From the IMG/VR virus record IMGVR_UViG_3300045988_161200: 64,000 nt of DNA; one strand, given 5' to 3'. The notes under the pieces were generated by a model, which was given only the letters and a program-made list of their open reading frames with translations, made no database searches and had not been told where the DNA came from. The position numbers were made by a program, and so were the translations under genes. Positions 598-36,075 of the stretch are shown here, piece after piece (position 1 is the first letter of the stretch; every line of letters begins with the position of its first letter). This DNA comes from a virus.

Positions 598-626
598 ATT
601 ATACTCGATAATTTTATATTTGTCAA
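598..626 (-). promoter_or_regulatory. sigma-A-type promoter upstream of tRNA cluster
   Basis: Reverse strand has TTGACA (621-626), a 17-nt spacer and TATAAT (598-603). It is followed by TAAGTAAGTAATAAG and tRNA-Gln. Confidence 0.65.
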
Positions 627-3276: not shown

Positions 3277-3708
3277 TTATTTTAATAATTCTGGTGCAAT
3301 TTTTATACCGCATTGTTCAACCTCTTTTATTTTAAACCTTGCAGTCCTTATTCTTTCTACATCATACGCCGTAAGTGCGTGACCCCAAAATTCTTCAAGT
3401 TTTCTATTCAAGACTTTATCGTTTTCAATAACAGTGTATTTATCCCTATATTTTTTATCAAACCTTTTTATCTTTAAATATGGGACATAATAAGTAGTCT
3501 TATTTATCCTATCATATCGCAAATAGCAATACAAAGGAGAGGTAAAGATTTTCTTAATTTTGTACATGACTGTACGAATTGCATTGTAAATAAAAAATAT
3601 TACAAAAGCAAAAATTTGAAACAATAAATCTTCCTCATTCTTCAGCACTATAACGTTTATGATGCTGTTTAAAACAGTACCAATAATAATACCTATTACA
3701 ATTTCCAT
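3277..3708 (-). CDS. hypothetical membrane protein
   Basis: Start at MEIVIGIIIGTVLNSIINVIVL (transmembrane segment), 13 nt after the upstream stop codon. Confidence 0.6.
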   Translation of the reverse strand: MEIVIGIIIGTVLNSIINVIVLKNEEDLLFQIFAFVIFFIYNAIRTVMYKIKKIFTSPLYCYLRYDRINKTTYYVPYLKIKRFDKKYRDKYTVIENDKVLNRKLEEFWGHALTAYDVERIRTARFKIKEVEQCGIKIAPELLK

Positions 3709-3718
3709 ACATACATCC

Positions 3719-3979
3719 CTATTCCATTGAAATTGTTGTTTGTGTACGGTCGGCAAGAGTGTCTATAACAATATTTCCACAAACAGTAGGAAATACGGCT
3801 GTTACTCTCTCACCGTTCTTCGCCTGCTCATAATGTCCAGCTGCATTTTCAGCCCACATACCCGTGATATGAGCATATAAAGCTATTGCAACATCTTTTG
3901 CAAGTATAGGATTTTCTTTCTGCTTTGTCTTGAGGTCATCGCTGACCTTGTATTTACCTATCTGCAACACCATTATCAA
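3719..3979 (-). CDS. hypothetical protein
   Basis: 86-aa ORF with a 4-nt ATGA overlap with the upstream gene. Confidence 0.6.
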   Translation of the reverse strand: MIMVLQIGKYKVSDDLKTKQKENPILAKDVAIALYAHITGMWAENAAGHYEQAKNGERVTAVFPTVCGNIVIDTLADRTQTTISME

Positions 3980-6214: not shown

Positions 6215-6946
6215 TTATTCCTCCATTATTATATTAGATTTTTCTATAATTGCTTCTTTTAAGGAAGTTATTGTATTTACCACTGTACTTAATGTAAGTG
6301 TTATATCAGCTATGGCTTCTTTTTTGGTATATTGCTTATCAGAAACTCTATCCACCATTTCAATATAATCTTTAAGAGATTCGATGTAATTTTTAGTTTC
6401 TGATTTGAACATACTTGTTATCATTGCAAACGTAAGAGATTCTTCCGAATCGTCCTTCATTCGCTTGGCTCTATCCAACATTGTATCTGTTGCTTTAGTA
6501 CCCACGATAACAACATTCCCTTTGCGTTTATAAAGTCCCGTTGAACTTATTTCGTTGTCGAGATAAAGTGTTTTATCTTCGTCACTACAATAATTTAAAG
6601 CGGAAATTACTTTTGTAGCTTGAGATGTTGAATTTTCCGATAAAACTTTATTGACGCACTTATCATTTATTTCACTTTTGATAAGCTTATCATAACAAGA
6701 TAGGACACATTTACAATCTCTTGCAGTTCTGTCAGGCTGACCTAAAGCTTTGCTCACTTCCCTGTAGGACGTTTCCATCTTCATTGACCTCGGATTCAAT
6801 TCCACTTGGCGAGTTGCCAGCTCCACTATCCTCTGACACAATTTCAGTGTCAAACACGTCTGAGATAATGTCTGTTTCAGTTCCATTATCTCCGTTGTCA
6901 ATATTTCCTGCTGATCCGCTTTCGTCAGTGCCGTTTTCTTTGCCAT
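6215..6946 (-). CDS. hypothetical protein
   Basis: 243-aa ORF with GAGGGTGAAATAA-ATG RBS. Its first 215 nt overlap the 3' end of the upstream DUF262 ORF in another frame. Confidence 0.6.
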   Translation of the reverse strand: MAKKTALTKADQQEILTTEIMELKQTLSQTCLTLKLCQRIVELATRQVELNPRSMKMETSYREVSKALGQPDRTARDCKCVLSCYDKLIKSEINDKCVNKVLSENSTSQATKVISALNYCSDEDKTLYLDNEISSTGLYKRKGNVVIVGTKATDTMLDRAKRMKDDSEESLTFAMITSMFKSETKNYIESLKDYIEMVDRVSDKQYTKKEAIADITLTLSTVVNTITSLKEAIIEKSNIIMEE

Positions 6947-8090
6947 TTATTTCACCCTCATTCTCATCAAGATATTCGTCCATATAATCATCTATAGCAT
7001 ACTGTCTATCTTCTACCATTTCAGCAGAATACAGAGAGCTTCCGCTACCATTGGATTCACAGCTTGATGTAAGCAGTTCAAAATTATCACTGCTCCAGAA
7101 TTTATTGAGAAAGTTTCTGTAATCAGTAGCTGTTTTATTCTTTCTCTTAAACGAATTAAGACTCATTATATAATGTGGAATAGTTACAGAATCTAATCTT
7201 GCAGATTCTTCTTCCGACAGATTCATTTTAATTTCTGCAAGTTCCTCTACGAGCATAGATAGATTAGCGATATCCGATGCTTTTACATAATCATCAAAAT
7301 CATCTACAAACTTAGTCATCGTTGCAGAGCCAAGATTATTATAATTGTAAAATGTCATCATCATAAGAGTTCTTACTATACAACAAAGGATACTGTCATT
7401 TTTTGCCTTGCAACCATTAACATCTTCCCAAAGTATGCTATCACAAATTGGCTGTAAAGAACGCATAACGCCTGAACCAAGAGCAAAACGTATTTTCTGA
7501 TAAGCATTTGGGGACTTTCCGTTATTCATACAGAATACAATGTCGTCCAATTCTTCATCAGAAAAGCCCTCGTGCATATATGTAGTAAGGCTATATTTAT
7601 TAAAAAATGTCTTTATCGCATCGGAGAGCTGAGAATATTTTTTCCCTGCAATGTCAATTTCGACCTTTTGTTCATTGCCATTTTCATCAACACATCTACA
7701 CACAACAGGCAATGCTCTTTTATCCAAAGCAAACTTATCGTGATAAAAGTCTACAAGTGTTGTGGTTCTCTGCAATCCATCTACGAGAGATGTGATTGAA
7801 TAACTTTTACTCTCAGCTCTGCCCTTGGCAAGTGCTATACTTCCGATAGGTCTATTATGTAAAACAGCTTCAATTAACTTAGACTTCTGCTTTTTTGTCC
7901 ACTGGTCATCTGTGCGCTGAATAAGTGGATCACGGCAGATTTCTCCATCGTCAACTTCTTCAACATACATTTTTACTGAATAAGGAATCATCCGCACATC
8001 TGATTCTTCTCTTACACGCTCTGCAATGGTATAAGCAGTTCCATTGAGTTCAATAGAATTGTAATCTTTTTTCTTTGTTGTCTTTGTCAT
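6732..8090 (-). CDS. DUF262 (ParB-fold, GmrSD N-terminal-like) protein with acidic low-complexity tail
   Basis: IEAVLHNRPIGSIALA...SLVDGLQRTTTL matches the DUF262 DGQQR-type motif. The C-terminus is rich in D, E, N, G and S. Confidence 0.75.
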   Translation of the reverse strand: MTKTTKKKDYNSIELNGTAYTIAERVREESDVRMIPYSVKMYVEEVDDGEICRDPLIQRTDDQWTKKQKSKLIEAVLHNRPIGSIALAKGRAESKSYSITSLVDGLQRTTTLVDFYHDKFALDKRALPVVCRCVDENGNEQKVEIDIAGKKYSQLSDAIKTFFNKYSLTTYMHEGFSDEELDDIVFCMNNGKSPNAYQKIRFALGSGVMRSLQPICDSILWEDVNGCKAKNDSILCCIVRTLMMMTFYNYNNLGSATMTKFVDDFDDYVKASDIANLSMLVEELAEIKMNLSEEESARLDSVTIPHYIMSLNSFKRKNKTATDYRNFLNKFWSSDNFELLTSSCESNGSGSSLYSAEMVEDRQYAIDDYMDEYLDENEGEINGKENGTDESGSAGNIDNGDNGTETDIISDVFDTEIVSEDSGAGNSPSGIESEVNEDGNVLQGSEQSFRSA

Positions 8091-9729: not shown

Positions 9730-9758
9730 AGTATAACGCAATAAATTGCGTTTGTCAA
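9730..9758 (-). promoter_or_regulatory. leftward promoter, face-to-face with the promoter at 9656
   Basis: Reverse strand has TTGACA (9753-9758), a 17-nt spacer and TATACT (9730-9735). The spacer is exactly operator O1. Confidence 0.7.
9735..9752. promoter_or_regulatory. palindromic operator O1
   Basis: AACGCAAT-AA-ATTGCGTT, with perfect 8-bp arms. Confidence 0.7.
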
Positions 9759-9765
9759 TGCTTTT

Positions 9766-9783
9766 AACGCAATTTATTGCGTT
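9766..9783. promoter_or_regulatory. palindromic operator O2
   Basis: AACGCAAT-TT-ATTGCGTT, 31 bp centre-to-centre from O1. Confidence 0.7.
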
Positions 9784-9817
9784 TCTATGTTTACTACAAA
9801 ATTGTGAGGTGCTTTTT

Positions 9818-10540
9818 GTGGATTTTTATGAAAGATTAAAACAGGAGTGTAAAAAGAACAATACCACTGTAACTGCTTTACTTAAAGAGTTTAATATTAC
9901 CACAGGAAGAATGAGTAGCTGGAGCAAAGGTGGTAAACCAAATCCAAAAGAGGTCAAACTCTTTGCAGATAAACTAAACGTATCAACAGATTTTCTTATT
10001 ACAGGAGAAGAATATACTTTTGACAACAAAATTGTTCTTTCCGCAGACGAAAACAAAATTATTAAAGAATATCGTTATTTATCCGATAAATCTAAAACAG
10101 AAATTCGCAGCACCCTTAATCATTTATATGATATGGAGATGCAAATGGAAATTTCATCCGAATTAGCCGTTCCAACAATTTCTATTCCTCATTCTCTGTT
10201 TAAAGTTTCAGCTGGTGTAGGTGAATGGCTTCCGGAAGAATCTTGGAATACGATTCTTATTTTAGATACTCCGCAGGCTCGTAAGGCTGATTTTGCTTTG
10301 ACTATTGAAGGCGATTCTATGATGCCCGATTTTGAAAGCGGAGATATTGTACTTGTAAAAAAACAAGATGCTGTGGATATCGGACAAATTTGTATTTATA
10401 TTATTGAAGACAACGGATATATTAAGAAATTTGGTGGAGATAGACTCATTTCTTTAAATAAAAAATATGATGATATTCTTTTTTCCGATTACGATATTCA
10501 AGATATCCATTGCAAAGGCTTGGTTATTGGAAAAGTATAA
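9818..10540 (+). CDS. CI/LexA-like repressor (HTH plus S24 peptidase domain)
   Basis: N-terminal HTH (TVTALLKEFNITTGRMSSWSKG) and C-terminal ALTIEGDSMMPDF...IKKF Ser-Lys dyad. GTG start at 9818 lies 7 nt after GAGGTG. Confidence 0.85.
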   Translation: MDFYERLKQECKKNNTTVTALLKEFNITTGRMSSWSKGGKPNPKEVKLFADKLNVSTDFLITGEEYTFDNKIVLSADENKIIKEYRYLSDKSKTEIRSTLNHLYDMEMQMEISSELAVPTISIPHSLFKVSAGVGEWLPEESWNTILILDTPQARKADFALTIEGDSMMPDFESGDIVLVKKQDAVDIGQICIYIIEDNGYIKKFGGDRLISLNKKYDDILFSDYDIQDIHCKGLVIGKV

Positions 10541-10559
10541 ATAGAAAGGATTTGATTTT

Positions 10560-10721
10560 ATGAGAAAATATCCACCTCCGAGATATACTAAACCCATAGT
10601 TGATAATGCAGGTGCATCACTCATTCTTATGATAATAACAGTATGCTGTCCTCCTTTGGGACTAATTGCATACCTTATTGCAGGACTAATTGAGGAATTT
10701 TTTCTTTCTATGCGAAAATAA
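10560..10721 (+). CDS. small membrane protein
   Basis: 53-aa ORF (below the track cutoff), MRKYPPPRYTKPIVDNAGASLILMIITVCCPPLGLIAYLIAGL. AGAAAGGA RBS. Confidence 0.55.
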   Translation: MRKYPPPRYTKPIVDNAGASLILMIITVCCPPLGLIAYLIAGLIEEFFLSMRK

Positions 10722-10723
10722 AT

Positions 10724-10760
10724 AAAAAGAACGTCTGTACCATAGACGTTCTTTTTATTT
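10724..10760. terminator. bidirectional intrinsic terminator
   Basis: AAGAACGTCT-GTACCAT-AGACGTTCTT flanked by A and T runs. Confidence 0.75.
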
Positions 10761-10777
10761 ACACTGAGAAATTTTAC

Positions 10778-10806
10778 TTGACAAATCTAATTATATACTG
10801 TATAAT
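10778..10806 (+). promoter_or_regulatory. consensus sigma-A promoter (rightward arm of the convergent pair)
   Basis: TTGACA, 17-nt spacer, TATAAT. Seven nt later comes GTAGGGAATACGTTGG. Confidence 0.75.
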
Positions 10807-10813
10807 AATAAAT

Positions 10814-10829
10814 GTAGGGAATACGTTGG
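10814..10829 (+). repeat. left copy of 16-nt inverted repeat
   Basis: GTAGGGAATACGTTGG. The reverse complement of 11106-11121 differs at 1 nt. Confidence 0.85.
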
Positions 10830-10871
10830 ATAGACGATAGTTCCCGACAAATTAATGATTTTAAGTGTTAA

Positions 10872-10902
10872 TAATCCGCCTAAGTACCAGTTAGGCGGAT
10901 TA
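10872..10902. terminator. 12-bp central hairpin, possible shared terminator
   Basis: TAATCCGCCTAA-GTACCAG-TTAGGCGGATTA. A U-rich tract follows on the + strand. Confidence 0.5.
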
Positions 10903-10989
10903 CTTCTTTATACGACTAAAGATAAAATCAACCAGTGTAATAACACAGCTGACAATATTTATAATAGTATCAATAGAAATAACTTCCAC
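10900..10989 (-). CDS. candidate type I toxin-like hydrophobic peptide (29 aa)
   Basis: GTG-EVISIDTIINIVSCVITLVDFIFSRIKK-TAA. AAAGGAGA sits immediately upstream, but the spacing to GTG is too short. The stop codon lies inside the hairpin. Confidence 0.3.
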   Translation of the reverse strand: MEVISIDTIINIVSCVITLVDFIFSRIKK

Positions 10990-11105
10990 TCTCCTTTGCA
11001 GTTATTCCACAAAGGTTTGTGAATTTCGACCTACTTTCCAACCAATGTGGTGATGGTCGGGAGGTTTACCGCCTACTCTATACGTCCAAACTCTTCAAAA
11101 CAACG

Positions 11106-11121
11106 CCAATGTATTCCCTAC
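11106..11121 (-). repeat. right copy of 16-nt inverted repeat
   Basis: Reverse strand reads GTAGGGAATACATTGG, 7 nt downstream of the -10. Confidence 0.85.
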
Positions 11122-11128
11122 TGCTTGT

Positions 11129-11157
11129 ATTATACCATGCTTTTCCAAATATGTCAA
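11129..11157 (-). promoter_or_regulatory. consensus sigma-A promoter (leftward arm of the convergent pair)
   Basis: Reverse strand has TTGACA (11152-11157), a 17-nt spacer and TGGTATAAT (11129-11137). Confidence 0.75.
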
Positions 11158-11178
11158 TATATTTATTATTCCGACAAA

Positions 11179-11224
11179 TAAAAAAATAATCGTCACCTGA
11201 CTAAAGATGACGATTATTTTTTTA
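11179..11224. terminator. bidirectional intrinsic terminator
   Basis: ATAATCGTCA...TGACGATTAT stem flanked by A7 and T8 runs. Confidence 0.75.
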
Positions 11225-11232
11225 TATTGATG

Positions 11233-12246
11233 TTATTTTCCAAGAAATTCATTGATAGATTTTTCTATAATATTTCTTCTTGCTTTTATGCTTGTGGGGC
11301 TTGTAGTATGTTCCCTAACGAGAGAAGCATATTCTTCGGGCATATTACCAAAGAATTTTCCAACCCATTTTGCAAACTGATCGGGTGTGTCGAATTTTTC
11401 CAGATATGGTAAATATCCTATAAGATGAGTAGGTTTGAACATCAGTTTGATGATATCTGAATTTTCCTTCTCTATTGCCATAAGCTTATATGCTTCAAAT
11501 ATAAAATCATACGAAGATTTAAGCTGTTCCCTTTCGTCTGCATCAATGCTCAAAACCTTCATGACCTCATTGACGTGGGCTGGAGTGAGATTTGGTTCTT
11601 CCTCAAAGAGAGCTATCCACGATCTGATTATGATTTCCTGCTGTTTAAGGGCTTTTCTTTCCGTTGGGGTGAGCATTACATTAAACAGCTCGTGGCTGGT
11701 AAGCTCCTTGATATCTTCCATTCCCTGCTTATAGGAACGGGCGATATCGAACTTACTAACCGTTTTTCCGTTATTAAGTCTGCGGAAAATAAGGGATTCC
11801 TGCTCGGGTGTAGCATTTTCTATTATAGAAACGTTCAGAGTTGTATCAAGTATCCAGCTTTGGAGTTTGGGAGGAAGCTGCTTAAAACGCTTACCCTGAA
11901 GCTTAACGGGTTCTCCGTTGAGGTATATATCAGGCTCGTTTGTCAGTCCCGTGAGGGCAAAATCTCCGTCTATATAATGGATTATAGTTGTTCCTCTTTG
12001 CTTTCCGTCAAAGATTTTCAGGAGAGTATTTCCGTTGGGGAGTTCCCTTACACCTGCAATAAATGGAGACTGTGCATCGGTAATCTTCAGTAATATTGAA
12101 TGAATATAAAGGGATTTTCGGGTATTGCTCCACACCTCTCCACGCTGCATATCGTCCGTGAAGTCAACCTCGGGGACGTCTTCATAGTACATATTGTAAA
12201 GAGATTTAATGCTGATACCTTTTTGGTACATCTTAAATTTATCCAT
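11233..12246 (-). CDS. DUF262 (ParB-fold) protein, stand-alone cassette
   Basis: MQRGEVWSNTRKSLYIHSIL...KIFDGKQRGTTI (DGxQR motif). AGGAGGA lies 8 nt upstream of the ATG at 12246. Confidence 0.75.
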   Translation of the reverse strand: MDKFKMYQKGISIKSLYNMYYEDVPEVDFTDDMQRGEVWSNTRKSLYIHSILLKITDAQSPFIAGVRELPNGNTLLKIFDGKQRGTTIIHYIDGDFALTGLTNEPDIYLNGEPVKLQGKRFKQLPPKLQSWILDTTLNVSIIENATPEQESLIFRRLNNGKTVSKFDIARSYKQGMEDIKELTSHELFNVMLTPTERKALKQQEIIIRSWIALFEEEPNLTPAHVNEVMKVLSIDADEREQLKSSYDFIFEAYKLMAIEKENSDIIKLMFKPTHLIGYLPYLEKFDTPDQFAKWVGKFFGNMPEEYASLVREHTTSPTSIKARRNIIEKSINEFLGK

Positions 12247-12312
12247 AAAAAATCCTCCTGACAAAATTAAAAGTAATGATAGAACAAACATAATCATCAT
12301 TTCAATGATTTA

Positions 12313-14284: not shown

Positions 14285-14512
14285 AATAATATCCTCCTAT
14301 AATTCTGAAATTTGAATTTTATTAAGCAATTTTTCCGCTCTGAATAAGCCCCGCATTATTTATTCCTTCATATTATTTCCTACTTTGAATTTTCCAACTT
14401 TGACAGTCTTATTCAGACTGTCAAACGCTCAGAGTTTAATGGACTGTTTATAGCTACTCAGACAGCTTAATCAAATCGTGATTTTATCCATACACTACTA
14501 CATTTAATTATA

Positions 14513-16750: not shown

Positions 16751-16946
16751 TGTGCAATATGTTTCATTATATAAGTCCTCCTATCAAATACACGTTTTAT
16801 TTTTTAGCTGTCTCCCACTATTGCGAGAGACTAACAGCTTACAGCCGTTTAACCGCGCTGTTATGCTTATTGTGCATACCTTACGGGGGAAAATCCCCCG
16901 TAAACGCTCAGAGCCTAAATGCCTTTTTATACACGCCCTGACGTGT

Positions 16947-25627: not shown

Positions 25628-26731
25628 ATGATAACAGCAAAAATTGGTAATAATACAATTAATTGTTATGACAGTAAGTATTCTAAGGAAGAATTGAAGA
25701 CTTGGGCAAGTAAAAATATAATCAAATGTCCAGTTTGTGGAAAAGATTATGAATACTGCCATGGTCAAATAAACACGCCGTATTTTAGACACAAGGATAA
25801 ATTTGAATGCGATTATTTATATTCTGAGCCTGAAACAGAAGAACATATTAAAGGTAAAATTGCTTTATATAACTGGATTAAGTCACAAGACGGAGTTAGT
25901 AACGCTGTATTAGAAGCGTGGATTCCTGAAACCAAACAAAGACCTGACGTTATGTTTGAATATGGTGGTCAAAAGTGGGTTATCGAATTTCAATGTAATC
26001 CTATTGCAACAGAACAAATAGAACGTCATAAACTGTATAAAGCCGCAGATATTAAAGATATCTGGATTTGTGGCAAAGAAAAATATGGCACTGGTAGAAA
26101 ACATATGGAAAAAATTATGAATGGTATGTTTGATTATGAAAATAATACTTTTACTGAAATTTATGACCTTTTACAATGCGATCTGCTTCCTTATGGATAT
26201 GTTAAAAATAGTTTTTTTCGTTCTGTAAAGCTTGAAAATATAACATTTAAGAATAGAATTGTATTTACAGATAACGCTATGGTTACATATGTTAGCGAAG
26301 ATATAGAATTACATAAAAAATATGAAGCAAGATTAAAAAGAGAAGAATATATTAACACTATATTTGATATTTGTAATACTATTCCAAAATGGTATAAAAA
26401 AGTACAACATAATTGTGTAATAACAGTAAAACGTGGTAGCTGGGATTCTCCGTATCTTGTAATGATAAATTTTTCAAGCGATATTACACAGCCATTTACT
26501 ATGTTTATCAAAGAAGATACTATTGACATTTGCATAACAGAAAAATATAATCGTAAGGTTAAACGTGAATCATCATATCGTAGGAATAGTTATTATTGGC
26601 AAAAATCTTCAAGGTTTATCAATGTTGATATTCTTAAATATAGTGATAATAATTTAATTTTAACAATAAAAAATTATTTCTCAGGAAAGCTTCATGAAGG
26701 AATAGCGATAAAATACAGTAAAAGGAGATAA
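25628..26731 (+). CDS. CoiA-like nuclease family protein
   Basis: CPVCGKDYEYCHGQINTPYFRHK...RPDVMFEYGGQKWVIEFQ. Confidence 0.65.
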   Translation: MITAKIGNNTINCYDSKYSKEELKTWASKNIIKCPVCGKDYEYCHGQINTPYFRHKDKFECDYLYSEPETEEHIKGKIALYNWIKSQDGVSNAVLEAWIPETKQRPDVMFEYGGQKWVIEFQCNPIATEQIERHKLYKAADIKDIWICGKEKYGTGRKHMEKIMNGMFDYENNTFTEIYDLLQCDLLPYGYVKNSFFRSVKLENITFKNRIVFTDNAMVTYVSEDIELHKKYEARLKREEYINTIFDICNTIPKWYKKVQHNCVITVKRGSWDSPYLVMINFSSDITQPFTMFIKEDTIDICITEKYNRKVKRESSYRRNSYYWQKSSRFINVDILKYSDNNLILTIKNYFSGKLHEGIAIKYSKRR

Positions 26732-35034: not shown

Positions 35035-35104
35035 TGCGAGTTGGTCTAATGGTAGGATTAGGGTCTCATAAACCTTAGATTTACGTTCAAGTCGTAAGCT
35101 CGCC
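35035..35104 (+). tRNA. tRNA with CAU anticodon (Met, fMet or Ile2 type)
   Basis: Anticodon arm AGGGT-CTCATAA-ACCTT, T arm TTACG-TTCAAGT-CGTAA, acceptor GCGAGT/GCTCGC, GG in a short D loop. The ends are uncertain by 1 nt. Confidence 0.7.
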
Positions 35105-35109
35105 CCCAA

Positions 35110-36075
35110 ATTGGCAGTTCTCGATAATCTGCTGTTAGTAGCTCTGTCTGCGGACAACTGAGGTCAAAGTAGATATGCGTATCAAAATGGCTAAATCAAA
35201 TATGAAGTGAAACCAACACTCTTTAAATAAATGGTAAAAACGGAAAATATAAAACAATAATAAACTTGTTTGTAAGAAAGATGCTTGCATTTTCCCATTT
35301 TCACTACCGTTTGTGAAGTTTATTCGTCCAGTCGAGGGTGGAATGACGTTAAACTCTACCCTACCATAATGGTTCTGAGAAAATAATTATCAGAATTATG
35401 TTTGCAATAACCCCGATGAAAACGGTTGTCAACCTTTTGGGACATGATTATAATGAATGTTTATGGAACGATAGTTTTATAAGCAAGTCAACTTTGTATA
35501 TGAAAGTATGCAAGATGAGAGGGAAATCCTCAAATTTAGTTGTGGTGCTAAGAGTTATCGCTTCAAAATGCACAGAGCTTATCGCTGTGGTAATAGACGC
35601 TTCTGTGAAGAATAAGCCTTATACTAACGAGTGGTATCGCAAAGTCACTAAGGTAATCCAAATCAACACAGTCTGTTTTGATGCTTGAGAAATCAGGCTA
35701 TAAGGTAAGTCGCTGGTAAAAGTAGCCATATGACAGTATTGGGAACAAATCTTTTCTTTTTTGATGATTTTTTAAAAAAATTTCAAATGCTGAATGACTG
35801 GTGAAATTTGTGTATAACCAATTACACACAAGCTTTGAGAGAAATCTACGGTAAGAAGCTATGGGGTCGCTACCTATAGTTCAGCCTTATCGTCTTGGTG
35901 GCTGAAAATTGAAGAAGATAATGGAGGTACGGCGAAGGTCGTATTGCAGGCATAATTGTGGGAATTGTTTTTCTTACTGAAAACAAATAAAAATATCCCG
36001 TTCTGTGTTGGTGTACAAAACGAGATATATGATAAATGCTTGAGATAATCACGAATAAACAATACTGAAAGGATA
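35110..36075 (+). ncRNA. candidate large structured RNA (about 1 kb without credible ORFs)
   Basis: No ORF has an RBS. GC is visibly higher than in the flanks. There are many local helices, e.g. TTCTGA/TCAGAA at 35371, CACAG/CTGTG at 35571, CAGCC/GGCTG at 35882 and ATATCCCGTT/AACGAGATAT at 35992. It sits directly after a tRNA. Confidence 0.35.

What the first reader, a model, noticed from the sequence alone, without database searches (positions are those of the whole stretch)
10778..11157. Mirror-symmetric convergent promoter module resembling a type I toxin-antitoxin locus
Seen: two consensus promoters face each other (TTGACA-17-TATAAT at 10778-10806, and its reverse-strand counterpart at 11129-11157). 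Each is followed after exactly 7 nt by the same 16-mer, GTAGGGAATAC(G/A)TTGG, so the two copies form a 16-bp inverted repeat 276 nt apart. Between them lies a 12-bp GC-rich hairpin (10872-10902). On the minus strand there is a 29-codon ORF encoding a hydrophobic peptide with a basic tail (EVISIDTIINIVSCVITLVDFIFSRIKK), whose stop codon lies inside that hairpin. The leftward RNA could close on itself 5' to 3' through the repeat. The module is bracketed by two bidirectional terminators. Established: prophage type I systems (txpA/RatA, bsrG/SR4) use convergent overlapping RNAs, and hok mRNA uses 5'-3' fold-back. Caveat: the SD-to-GTG spacing is too short, so the peptide is uncertain. A purely RNA-based function, or an operator pair for DNA looping, remains possible.
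Basis: partly seen in the sequence, partly recalled or inferred. Interest (0 to 1): 0.75.

Follow-up and report, generated by a model that had tools for sequence, protein, structure and literature searches.

The report
Phage toxin-antitoxin-like small RNA module
A 380-bp cassette in a gut phage carries two facing strong promoters, a folded mRNA for a tiny membrane peptide and an antisense small RNA; it looks like a previously undescribed family of RNA-controlled (type I) toxin-antitoxin modules, but nobody has tested toxicity.

Summary
Relatives from metagenomes turn it into a family of four sequence types (A = this window, plus B, C and D) found in at least four genomic contexts.

All four types keep the same parts:
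- two facing sigma-70 promoters whose predicted start sites are the first base of each repeat arm;
- a 307-329 nt core;
- a 5'-3' closing helix whose sequence differs between types but stays complementary (6 of 16 pairs show compensatory changes);
- a hairpin that hides the ribosome-binding site;
- a 29-31 codon hydrophobic ORF ending in KK, with its stop codon inside a hairpin that has a T-run only on the small-RNA strand.

Within types B and C the ORF shows 10 synonymous against 6 conservative replacement changes (P = 4e-4).

Best reading: a type I toxin-antitoxin-like module. The leftward RNA (~400 nt) is a stable, translationally locked mRNA. The rightward RNA (~97 nt) is antisense to its 3' UTR.

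Caveats: the window's allele lacks a usable start-codon spacing, no known toxin family matches, and toxicity is untested. I rate it a new member of a known kind, of moderate interest.

The parts
11129..11157 (-). Promoter of the leftward (peptide) mRNA: TTGACA-17-TGnTATAAT
   Evidence: 12/12 match with extended TG. The hexamers and the 7-nt distance to the helix arm are kept in types B, C and D, while the spacer sequence is unrelated.
10715..11121 (-). Predicted peptide mRNA, ~400 nt, from the G at 11121 to the outer terminator
   Evidence: The start site is inferred from the -10 box plus 7 nt. There is no T-run after the central hairpin on this strand, so the end is inferred at the 10761-10719 terminator. 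The core 11121-10814 folds at -97.3 kcal/mol, z = -5.6.
11106..11121 (-). P1, 5' strand (right copy of the 16-mer); the first 16 nt of the mRNA
   Evidence: Pairs with 10814-10829. Across the four types, 6 of 16 pairs show compensatory double changes and 95.9% of cells are paired.
11083..11105 (-). Small 5' hairpin (CGUU...GACG)
   Evidence: Predicted in the single-sequence and consensus folds.
11056..11076 (-). P2 (GUAGGCGGUA) and P3 (UCCCGAC), 5' strands of the long-range helix
   Evidence: They pair with 10830-10839 and 10842-10848. The G.U pairs exist in this sense only. P3 differs between types but stays complementary.
10993..11023 (-). Anti-SD hairpin (UUCAC..CCUUUGUGG-loop-CUGCAAAGG..) that hides the ribosome-binding site and the GUG
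   Evidence: SD unpaired probability is 0.29 against 0.70 in shuffles (5/500 shuffles as low). Four of 9 pairs are compensatory across types and 96.5% of cells are paired.
10991..10997 (-). Shine-Dalgarno AAAGGAG
   Evidence: At mRNA nt 125-131, the same position as in type B.
10900..10989 (-). 29-codon ORF (GTG) MEVISIDTIINIVSCVITLVDFIFSRIKK; start codon doubtful
   Evidence: Listed. Homologous ORFs occur in types B, C and D. Substitutions in B and C indicate purifying selection. Polar residues form a stripe along one face of a helix.
10872..10902 (.). 12-bp hairpin containing the stop codon; terminator of the rightward small RNA
   Evidence: The terminator scan finds it on the + strand only, with tail CTTCTTTATA. 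The stem TAATCCGYCTA/TAGRCGGATTA is conserved in all four types.
10814..10850 (-). 3' strands of P3, P2 and P1 (left copy of the 16-mer) in the mRNA's 3' UTR
10814..10912 (+). Predicted antisense small RNA (~97 nt), fully complementary to the mRNA's 3' UTR and its last ~4 codons
   Evidence: Consensus promoter plus hairpin plus T-run. Its first 37 nt are the exact complement of the 3' strand of the long-range helix.
10778..10806 (+). Promoter of the antisense small RNA: TTGACA-17-TATAAT
   Evidence: 12/12 match. Kept in all types and in the toxin-less remnant L105.
10719..10761 (.). Two-way terminator: ends the repressor/53-aa operon (+) and, by inference, the peptide mRNA (-)
   Evidence: 18-bp perfect inverted repeat with A-run and T-run.
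11178..11225 (.). Two-way terminator after the DUF262 gene; insulates the module on the right
   Evidence: 21-bp inverted repeat, 95% complementary, with A-run and T-run.

Best explanation
I read this as a self-contained, mobile, type I toxin-antitoxin-like module carried as accessory cargo by temperate phages of the human gut.

The mRNA. The leftward promoter (11157-11129) makes a ~400-nt mRNA starting at G11121. Its first 66 nt pair with nt 274-308 of the same RNA (P1-P2-P3, a long-range 5'-3' helix), so the 5' end is buried from the first base. A local hairpin hides the Shine-Dalgarno sequence. The mRNA encodes a 29-31 aa peptide with a C-terminal KK tail that would form a membrane helix with one polar face.

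The small RNA. The rightward promoter (10778-10806) makes a ~97-nt RNA that ends at the 10872-10902 hairpin. It is the perfect antisense of the mRNA's 3' UTR, and it starts at the last base of the long-range helix.

Inferred steps. The helix and the hidden SD keep the mRNA stable and untranslated. The small RNA pairs with the 3' UTR, which displaces the mRNA's 5' arm and creates a ~97-bp duplex. That would expose the mRNA to RNase III and to 5' exonuclease, as in the Bacillus prophage systems. If the unstable partner is lost, peptide would be made and would damage the membrane.

Shown here: the anatomy, its conservation and covariation, and the coding signature. Inferred: transcript ends, RNA stabilities, nuclease steps and toxicity.
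For: - Promoters. Both are perfect, and two of the window's five perfect sites lie in this module. Their hexamers and the 6-7 nt distance to the helix arms are kept in four types whose spacers are unrelated.
- Long-range helix. P1 has 6 of 16 pairs with compensatory double changes and 95.9% of cells paired. Over the whole structure 89.7% of cells are paired against 38-49% in slid controls, and 0 of 500 shuffles reach the covariation score. P2 and P3 are not DNA repeats and contain G.U pairs in the mRNA sense only. The minimum free energy of the mRNA sense is 10-23 kcal/mol below the antisense in every sequence folded; z = -5.6 for type A and -9.2 for type B.
- SD sequestration. It is predicted in types A and B, and the anti-SD hairpin has 4 compensatory pairs across types.
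- ORF. It sits at the same place in all types with its stop in the conserved hairpin. Types B and C have canonical starts. Within-type changes are 10 synonymous to 6 conservative replacements, binomial P = 4e-4, and the other two frames look neutral. The hydrophobic moment peaks at 100 degrees, as expected for a helix.
- Small RNA. The hairpin has a T-run only in the small-RNA sense in all types.
- Mobility. The module occurs in at least four contexts (downstream of DUF262 genes, between tail genes, next to murT/gatD-like genes). It is absent from otherwise syntenic relatives.
- Decay pattern. L105 has lost the peptide gene's promoter and start but keeps the small RNA gene. This is what one expects if the peptide is harmful without the RNA.
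- Known systems with these hallmarks: PMC8594479, PMC5848175, PMC5416894.
Against: - No transcript, toxicity or rescue data exist.
- In the window's type A allele the GTG lies 1 nt after GGAG, which is too close for normal initiation. The next in-frame candidates are weak ATT codons. Type D has no in-frame start at all. The window copy may therefore be poorly translated or untranslated.
- The peptides match no Pfam, NCBIfam or PHROG toxin family, and the RNAs match no Rfam family.
- Types A and B carry charged residues inside the hydrophobic stretch.
- Both promoters look equally strong, whereas an excess of antitoxin is usual.
- The covariation rests on four lineages, so it reflects few independent events. 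P1 substitutions alone do not clearly favour one strand: about 10 kept and 4 broken in the mRNA sense, against about 6 kept and 8 broken in the antisense.
- Read-through of the central hairpin by the leftward RNA is inferred, not shown.
Confidence: 0.65

Rival explanations
1. The peptide is a small phage membrane protein whose level is tuned by an antisense RNA. It might act in superinfection exclusion, lysis timing or a membrane defence function. It would not be a toxin kept in check, and the module would not act by addiction or abortive infection.
For: - The same anatomy fits: a coding ORF under purifying selection and antisense control.
- The site is a cargo hotspot next to the lysogeny genes. 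Relatives carry a 482-aa ORF or an AAA_15/AAA_21 + DUF4435 gene pair there.
- The type A and B peptides have a polar stripe rather than a plain hydrophobic helix.
Against: - The tight multi-layer silencing (buried 5' end, hidden SD, full-length antisense RNA from a perfect promoter) is typical of genes that must be kept off (PMC8594479).
- The L105 remnant kept the RNA and lost the peptide start, not the reverse.
- The module also occurs inside a tail-gene block, where a lysogeny-linked function is less obvious.
Confidence: 0.17
2. In this window the module is an RNA-only derivative. The type A allele no longer makes peptide, and the two RNAs persist either as a decaying remnant or as an antisense pair that neutralises related modules of other phages.
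For: - SD-to-GTG spacing is 1 nt in every type A copy.
- The related type D has a frameshifted start.
- A and D share the 'AAAGGArGUG' arrangement, which reads as one extended SD (AAAGGAGGUGA-like) with no start codon behind it.
- The first 25 nt of the small RNA are identical in types A and B, so partial cross-pairing is conceivable.
Against: - The type A ORF is intact in all 7 sequence variants from more than 25 contigs. Its only changes are V>I, V>I and one synonymous change.
- The polar-stripe pattern is kept.
- The anti-SD hairpin still covers the SD and the GUG. That would be pointless without translation.
Confidence: 0.12
3. The 16-mers are a pair of operator sites at +1 to +16 of two promoters, bound by one repressor (DNA looping or co-repression). 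The RNAs would be incidental.
For: The sequence is identical at both start sites and lies next to a CI-like repressor gene.
Against: - There is no further copy near any other promoter of the window, even with 3 mismatches allowed.
- The arm sequence differs between types while complementarity is kept. It does so in contexts with no shared regulator gene (the tail block, and the murT/gatD-like neighbourhood).
- The pairing continues into P2 and P3, which are not DNA repeats and need G.U pairs.
Confidence: 0.03
4. The module is a convergent-promoter transcriptional-interference switch. It would set read-through into the neighbouring DUF262 gene or repressor operon, and neither RNA would have a function of its own.
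For: Two strong promoters face each other across 308 bp, so polymerase collisions are likely.
Against: - The module is walled off by two-way terminators on both sides.
- It occurs with unrelated neighbours.
- The conserved ORF, SD hairpin and long-range helix would have no explanation.
Confidence: 0.03

Closest known systems
Bacillus subtilis prophage type I systems: txpA/RatA, bsrG/SR4, bsrE/SR5, yonT/SR6
   Same: - Prophage-borne.
- Convergent sigma-A promoters.
- A small membrane peptide.
- A ~100-nt antisense RNA complementary to the 3' end or 3' UTR of the toxin mRNA.
- The expected mode of action: duplex formation followed by RNase III cleavage (PMC5848175).
- A structured, SD-sequestering mRNA, as in bsrG and bsrE.
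   Different: - No sequence or covariance-model similarity.
- Here the antisense RNA lies entirely inside the mRNA's 3' UTR rather than overlapping 3' end to 3' end.
- It covers one strand of a 5'-3' closing helix, so the small RNA and the mRNA begin with the same ~16 nt.
hok/sok (plasmid R1) and aapA1/IsoA1 (Helicobacter pylori)
   Same: The full-length toxin mRNA is closed by a long-distance 5'-3' interaction that keeps it stable and untranslated. The peptide is about 30 aa (PMC5416894, PMC8594479).
   Different: - Those are Gram-negative systems whose antisense RNA targets the 5' UTR or translation start. They are activated by 3' trimming that removes the 3' strand of the helix.
- Here the antisense RNA targets that 3' strand itself.
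- No mok-like leader ORF was seen.
- In my folds the SD stays hidden whether or not the 3' region is masked.
Fst/RNA I-RNA II (par of pAD1) family
   Same: Gram-positive; convergent promoters; repeats at the 5' ends of both RNAs; a stem-loop between the two genes that holds the end of the toxin ORF.
   Different: - par has direct DNA repeats, so the two RNA 5' ends are complementary to each other. Here the repeats are inverted, so the two 5' ends are alike and each is complementary to the mRNA's 3' region.
- In par both RNAs stop at a shared two-way terminator. Here the T-run is on one side only.
- The peptide gives no Fst-family match.
- The description of par rests on my own knowledge plus PMC8594479.

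Membership tests
Type I toxin-antitoxin systems (class) | Small (<60 aa) hydrophobic or membrane peptide ORF that is really coding | tested here: met
   - ORFs of 29-31 aa; GRAVY 0.5-1.5; C-terminal KK; helix-periodic polar stripe.
- 10 synonymous to 6 conservative replacement changes within types B and C, P = 4e-4.
Type I toxin-antitoxin systems (class) | Antisense RNA gene with its own promoter and terminator, complementary to the toxin mRNA | tested here: met
   In silico only. There is a 12/12 promoter, a hairpin and a T-run on the + strand. All are kept in the four types and in the L105 remnant. Expression was not tested.
Type I toxin-antitoxin systems (class) | Toxin mRNA folded so that translation is blocked (SD/anti-SD pairing, 5'-3' long-distance interaction), as used as descriptors by T1TAdb (PMC8594479) | tested here: met
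   Anti-SD hairpin and P1-P3 helix, both with covariation.
Type I toxin-antitoxin systems (class) | Functional translation start for the toxin in this window's copy | tested here: not met
   The GTG lies 1 nt after GGAG. Types B and C have SD-N7-9-ATG.
Type I toxin-antitoxin systems (class) | Peptide toxic when expressed, and neutralised by the RNA | not testable with these tools
   Needs expression experiments.
hok/sok and AapA/IsoA | Antisense RNA overlaps the 5' UTR or translation initiation region; for hok, a leader ORF (mok); homologous toxin | tested here: not met
   The antisense RNA lies in the 3' UTR. No Rfam or Pfam match. Only the 5'-3' fold-back principle is shared.
TxpA/RatA, BsrG/SR4, BsrE/SR5, YonT/SR6 | Homology of toxin or RNAs to these families | tested here: not met
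   No hit at E up to 10 in Rfam on this region. No hit in Pfam or NCBIfam for the peptides. The layout (3' antisense, prophage) is shared.
Fst/RNA I-RNA II (par) | Direct repeats that make the two RNA 5' ends complementary; a shared two-way terminator; an Fst-type peptide | tested here: not met
   The repeats are inverted. The T-run is on one strand only. No Fst-family hit.

The most novel reading that the evidence does not exclude
The mirror symmetry is the mechanism. In all four types the small RNA starts at the base that ends the mRNA's 5'-3' closing helix. Its 5' end is therefore a copy of the mRNA's own 5' end, and it competes with that end for the same 3' strand. The antitoxin would then act by strand invasion of a long-range helix, unlocking the mRNA's protected 5' end while building an RNase III substrate. 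That combines the fold-back lock of hok/aapA1 with the 3' antisense of Bacillus prophage systems in a way not described for any type I family.

One further possibility: alleles A and B share identical helix arms and promoters but are only 41-52% identical in the centre. They could be exchangeable specificity cassettes, and the start-less A and D alleles could serve as antitoxin-only immunity against related phages.
Probability: 0.25. Interest if true: 0.6.

Novelty: new member of a known kind. Interest (0 to 1): 0.45.

Why it matters
Type I toxin-antitoxin modules are hard to find by homology, and almost none are described from uncultured gut phages. This one comes with a ready comparative data set: four types, several genomic contexts, compensatory changes in two helices and a coding signature. 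It also has a clear, testable architecture.

If confirmed, it would add a new toxin family. It would also add a new arrangement, in which the antisense RNA is nested in the 3' UTR on top of one strand of a 5'-3' closing helix. And it would mark a cargo hotspot next to the lysogeny genes of a widespread group of human-gut phages, a group that also carries ROOL RNA and Pistol ribozymes.

It does not overturn any current view, because small RNA-controlled toxins in prophages are well established.

Tried and rejected
Searches that found nothing useful:
- Rfam at gathering and at E up to 10: nothing on the module beyond terminator-like noise.
- Pfam, NCBIfam and PHROGs on the peptides: no family. 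The best hit is phrog_17665 at E = 0.02, of unknown function.
- GenBank phage collection: no DNA match for the module, for 24 kb of the window, or for the type B module.
- GTDB representative genomes: no hit to the two-arm pattern and none to the neighbouring DUF262 protein, so no host was named.
- The metagenome two-arm scan added only five type A copies. L069 is a chance hit that looks eukaryotic.
- The 16-mer scan of IMG/VR returned 53 loci, about the number I estimate for a 16-mer by chance. Only about 12 are real.
- Scanning IMG/VR for a conserved 19-mer from the mRNA's 5' region found no locus beyond those already held.
- A search back-translated from the peptide found only known copies.
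- The search for homologous proteins refuses queries under 40 aa. With a 41-aa mis-called version of the type C peptide it returned only its own clusters.
- A profile search of 1.84 billion representatives also returned only itself.
- Literature search for the peptide and 16-mer strings: no paper.

Analyses and ideas I dropped:
- The first alignment, A1, used wrong coordinates for L002 and was discarded.
- Duplex energy of the long-range helix did not separate the two strands for the window sequence itself (-42.2 against -41.8 kcal/mol). The strand assignment rests on the other alleles, on the G.U pairs in P2/P3 and on the one-sided T-run.
- A retron or other structured non-coding RNA reading had no supporting evidence: no Rfam family matches the module, none of the ten neighbouring ORFs scanned hits a reverse-transcriptase family (not all ORFs of the window were scanned), and the ORF is under selection.
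- The 55-aa + strand ORF at 10855-11022 is not conserved in type B.
Full report
**1. The observation**

- Two 12/12 sigma-70 promoters face each other, at 10778-10806 (+) and 11157-11129 (-); the latter has an extended TG.
- The window holds only five perfect TTGACA-17-TATAAT sites against 0.09 expected by chance. One of the others sits upstream of phage tRNA genes.
- Seven nt after each -10 box lies GTAGGGAATAC(G/A)TTGG. These are the only two copies in 64 kb even with 3 mismatches allowed, and they are 276 nt apart.
- The 12-bp hairpin at 10872-10902, the minus-strand 29-codon ORF at 10989-10900 with its TAA in the stem, the 1-nt gap between GGAG and GTG, and the two flanking A-run/stem/T-run terminators (10719-10761, 11178-11225) are all there.

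**2. Surroundings**

The module lies between a CI-like S24 repressor gene with a 53-aa membrane ORF (9746-10721, +) and a GmrSD_N/DUF262-only gene (11233-12300, -). The window is phage DNA with tRNAs, a ROOL RNA and two Pistol ribozymes. It has no relative in GenBank phages or in GTDB representative genomes.

**3. Relatives**

Pattern scans and exact-peptide look-ups recovered the module from many IMG/VR and human-gut metagenome contigs. They fall into four types.
- Type A is the window type: 7 variants at 93-99% identity from more than 25 contigs.
- Type B has promoters and helix arms identical to A, but the centre is only 41-52% identical. Its ORF, MEVFSFVLTGITCICKVVDTVINITNHNKKN, follows AAGGAGG-N9-ATG. 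It is indexed in 35 blocks of the assembly collection.
- Type C encodes MLTVDSYIGLAGCAIAVLAIIVDIILSNKK behind GAGGAAG-N7-ATG, and has quite different helix arms.
- Type D comes from one contig. It keeps the reading frame NVTIDTCIGIFGCVLNAVSIVVQIITSRKK but has no in-frame start.

The genomic contexts differ:
- downstream of DUF262 genes, with at least four different neighbours on the other side;
- between a 167-aa gene and the tape-measure gene;
- next to murT/gatD-like genes, identified by eye.

Syntenic relatives L054 and L061 lack the module, and L065 carries a 482-aa ORF at the same site. It is therefore an autonomous, mobile accessory unit. Its conserved edges are the two -35 boxes.

**4. 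Features shared by all types**

- *Promoters.* Each type has a TTGAC(A/T)-16/17-TATAAT-like promoter on each side. The spacers are unrelated, but the hexamers are kept and 6-7 nt separate the -10 box from the first base of the helix arm.
- *Length.* The core measures 307-329 nt.
- *P1.* The first 13-16 nt pair with the last 13-16 nt. The arms read GUAGGGAAUACAUUGG (A/B), GUGGGGAGAACUC (C) and GCAGGGAAACCAU (D). Six of 16 pairs show compensatory double changes and 95.9% of cells are paired. Substitutions within a type mostly keep pairing through G.U.
- *P2 and P3.* P2 (UAGGCGGU/AYCGUCUA) and P3 (A UCCCGAC/GUCGGGA; B GCUCUC/GAGGGY; C GCCCUC/GAGGGC; D ACCUC/GAGGU) extend the helix. They are not DNA repeats, and their G.U pairs exist only in the leftward-RNA sense.
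- *Anti-SD hairpin.* It has four compensatory pairs.
- *ORF and hairpin.* The ORF's stop codon is the first triplet of the conserved hairpin TAATCCGYCTA...TAGRCGGATTA.
- *Whole structure.* 89.7% of cells are paired against 38-49% in slid controls, and 0 of 500 shuffles reach the covariation score. Two caveats apply: the structure was derived from these same sequences, and the changes trace to only about four lineages.
- *Fold stability.* The folds are unusually stable (z = -5.6 for A, -9.2 for B). They are 10-23 kcal/mol better in the mRNA sense than in the antisense.

**5. Is the ORF coding?**

Yes for the family.
- Within types B and C there are 10 synonymous and 6 replacement changes, and all replacements are conservative (V/I, T/S, H/R, A/T). 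About 21% synonymous would be expected by chance (P = 4e-4).
- The other two frames of the same DNA look neutral or carry stop codons.
- The four peptides share a G/S-C motif, a (V/I)(V/I)(D/Q) motif and an S/T-x-KK end.
- Types A and B carry their polar residues at i, i+4, i+7 spacing, and the hydrophobic moment peaks at 100 degrees. Shuffles reach the observed value 351/5000 times for A and 3/5000 for B.

For the window's own allele the start remains a problem. GGAG-A-GUG leaves 1 nt of spacing. 'AAAGGAGAGUG' resembles one extended SD, and the next in-frame candidates are AUU codons. All type A copies share this arrangement, yet the ORF is intact in all of them and shows only V>I, V>I and one synonymous change.

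**6. Transcripts (inferred)**

The central hairpin is followed by a T-run only on the + strand: CTTCTTTATA in type A and TTCTTTTTATT in type B. On the other strand there is none.
- The rightward RNA should therefore end there, at about 97 nt.
- The leftward RNA should read through to the 10761-10719 terminator, giving about 400 nt. Only then can P1-P3 form, and their covariation argues that they do.
- The small RNA then lies wholly within the mRNA's 3' UTR and overlaps the last ~4 codons. Its first 37 nt are the complement of the 3' strand of P1-P3.

**7. Mechanism (inferred)**

The buried 5' end and the hidden SD would keep the mRNA long-lived and silent. I modelled small-RNA binding by masking the mRNA's 3' region. 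The SD stays sequestered (unpaired probability 0.29 to 0.21 in A, 0.42 to 0.31 in B). The unpaired probability of the first 16 nt rises from 0-0.08 to 0.33-0.70.

So the likeliest effect of the small RNA is degradation. It would form a ~97-bp duplex as an RNase III substrate, as shown for yonT/SR6, bsrG/SR4 and bsrE/SR5 (PMC5848175), and it would expose the 5' end. Opening the SD costs 7.7-10.7 kcal/mol. In both alleles that opening lets the anti-SD strand pair with an upstream segment instead, which suggests an alternative 'on' fold.

The L105 remnant lacks the peptide gene's promoter, 5' UTR and first codons but keeps the small RNA gene and its promoter. That fits a harmful peptide.

**8. 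Rivals**

- *Operator pair.* This is disfavoured. There are no other copies in the window. The arm sequence varies while complementarity is kept, and it does so in contexts without a common regulator. P2 and P3 are not DNA repeats.
- *Interference switch for neighbouring genes.* This is disfavoured by the insulating terminators and the changing neighbours.
- *A non-toxic regulated membrane peptide, or an RNA-only state of the type A allele.* Neither can be excluded without experiments.

**9. Comparison with known systems**

By T1TAdb's descriptors the module has the hallmarks of a type I toxin mRNA: SD/anti-SD pairing, a 5'-3' long-distance interaction, terminal stem-loops, and the position of the antisense RNA (PMC8594479).
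- It shares the 3' antisense layout and the prophage setting with the Bacillus families (PMC5848175).
- It shares the fold-back lock with hok and aapA1 (PMC5416894).
- It is not a member of any of them by sequence or covariance model.
- Its particular combination is listed for no family in PMC8594479: an antisense RNA nested in the 3' UTR on one strand of the closing helix, so that both RNAs begin with the same sequence.
- No paper in the held library contains the peptide sequences or the 16-mer.

**10. Verdict**

The type I toxin-antitoxin-like interpretation is supported by conservation, covariation, a coding signature, mobility and a decay pattern. It remains unproven functionally, and it is doubtful with respect to translation of this window's allele. 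I rate it a new member of a known kind, interest 0.45.

Noticed in passing
window 35388-35960 (+), with tRNA-Met at 35035-35108: A full-length ROOL RNA (317 bits, Rfam RF03087) sits in the phage genome just downstream of a tRNA-Met gene.
   Followed up: no
window 14393-14467 (-) and 16874-16946 (-): Two Pistol self-cleaving ribozymes (45.9 and 66.2 bits; gathering score 34.5) lie on the same strand 2.4 kb apart, downstream of the early genes.
   Followed up: no
window 10884-10890 compared with L057, L002 and L014: The 7-nt loop of the central hairpin is reverse-complemented in one subgroup of type A (GTACCAG against CTGGTAC) while the stems are unchanged. This is a hairpin-loop inversion. It leaves sense/antisense loop complementarity intact.
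   Followed up: partly
window 6732-8090 (-) and 11233-12300 (-); L108-L113: Two GmrSD_N/DUF262-only paralogues (452 and 355 aa, no DUF1524 nuclease half) flank the repressor region. The distant type C phages keep the same two-gene bracket (412 and 597 aa).
   Followed up: partly
window 10560-10721 (+): A 53-aa ORF with a hydrophobic core (MRKYPPPRYTKPIVDNAGASLILMIITVCCPPLGLIAYLIAGLIEEFFLSMRK) directly follows the CI-like repressor and has its own SD. It is co-conserved with the repressor in L090 and L100. No family matches it.
   Followed up: partly
window 59845-59873 (+) and 59940-59975: Another perfect consensus promoter drives an 11-codon ORF (MRIDRIKEIDR) behind GAAAGGAG, followed by hairpins. 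It could be a leader peptide or a small regulatory unit. Two further perfect promoters lie at 26523-26551 (+) and at 598-626 (-); the latter is upstream of tRNA-Gln and tRNA-Lys.
   Followed up: no
L105 (IMGVR_UViG_3300045988_157024), about 3640-3900: A type C remnant. The peptide gene's promoter, 5' UTR and first 7 codons are deleted right after the DUF262 terminator. The hairpin, the 3' arm and the antisense RNA promoter are intact, which makes it an orphan antitoxin-like gene.
   Followed up: partly
L091, L095, L097 (4250-6096); L065 (5315-6763): The site between the DUF262 gene and the lysogeny genes is a cargo hotspot. Some relatives carry an AAA_15/AAA_21 ATPase plus a DUF4435 gene (a defence-like pair). 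Others carry a DUF4325 protein or a 482-aa ORF.
   Followed up: no
window 10964-10974 (-) compared with L017 655-665: The 11-mer AUUGAUACUAU lies in the SD-to-ATG spacer of type B but inside codons 6-9 of the type A ORF. Type A in turn lacks 7 nt of spacer. This suggests a small templated rearrangement that moved the segment and destroyed the spacing.
   Followed up: partly
L104 4609-6614 (-): The type D copy sits a few hundred bp from genes that look like gatD and murT (identified by eye from the translations). That suggests a prophage end or a chromosomal copy in a Gram-positive host. It is the only hint of host identity.
   Followed up: no
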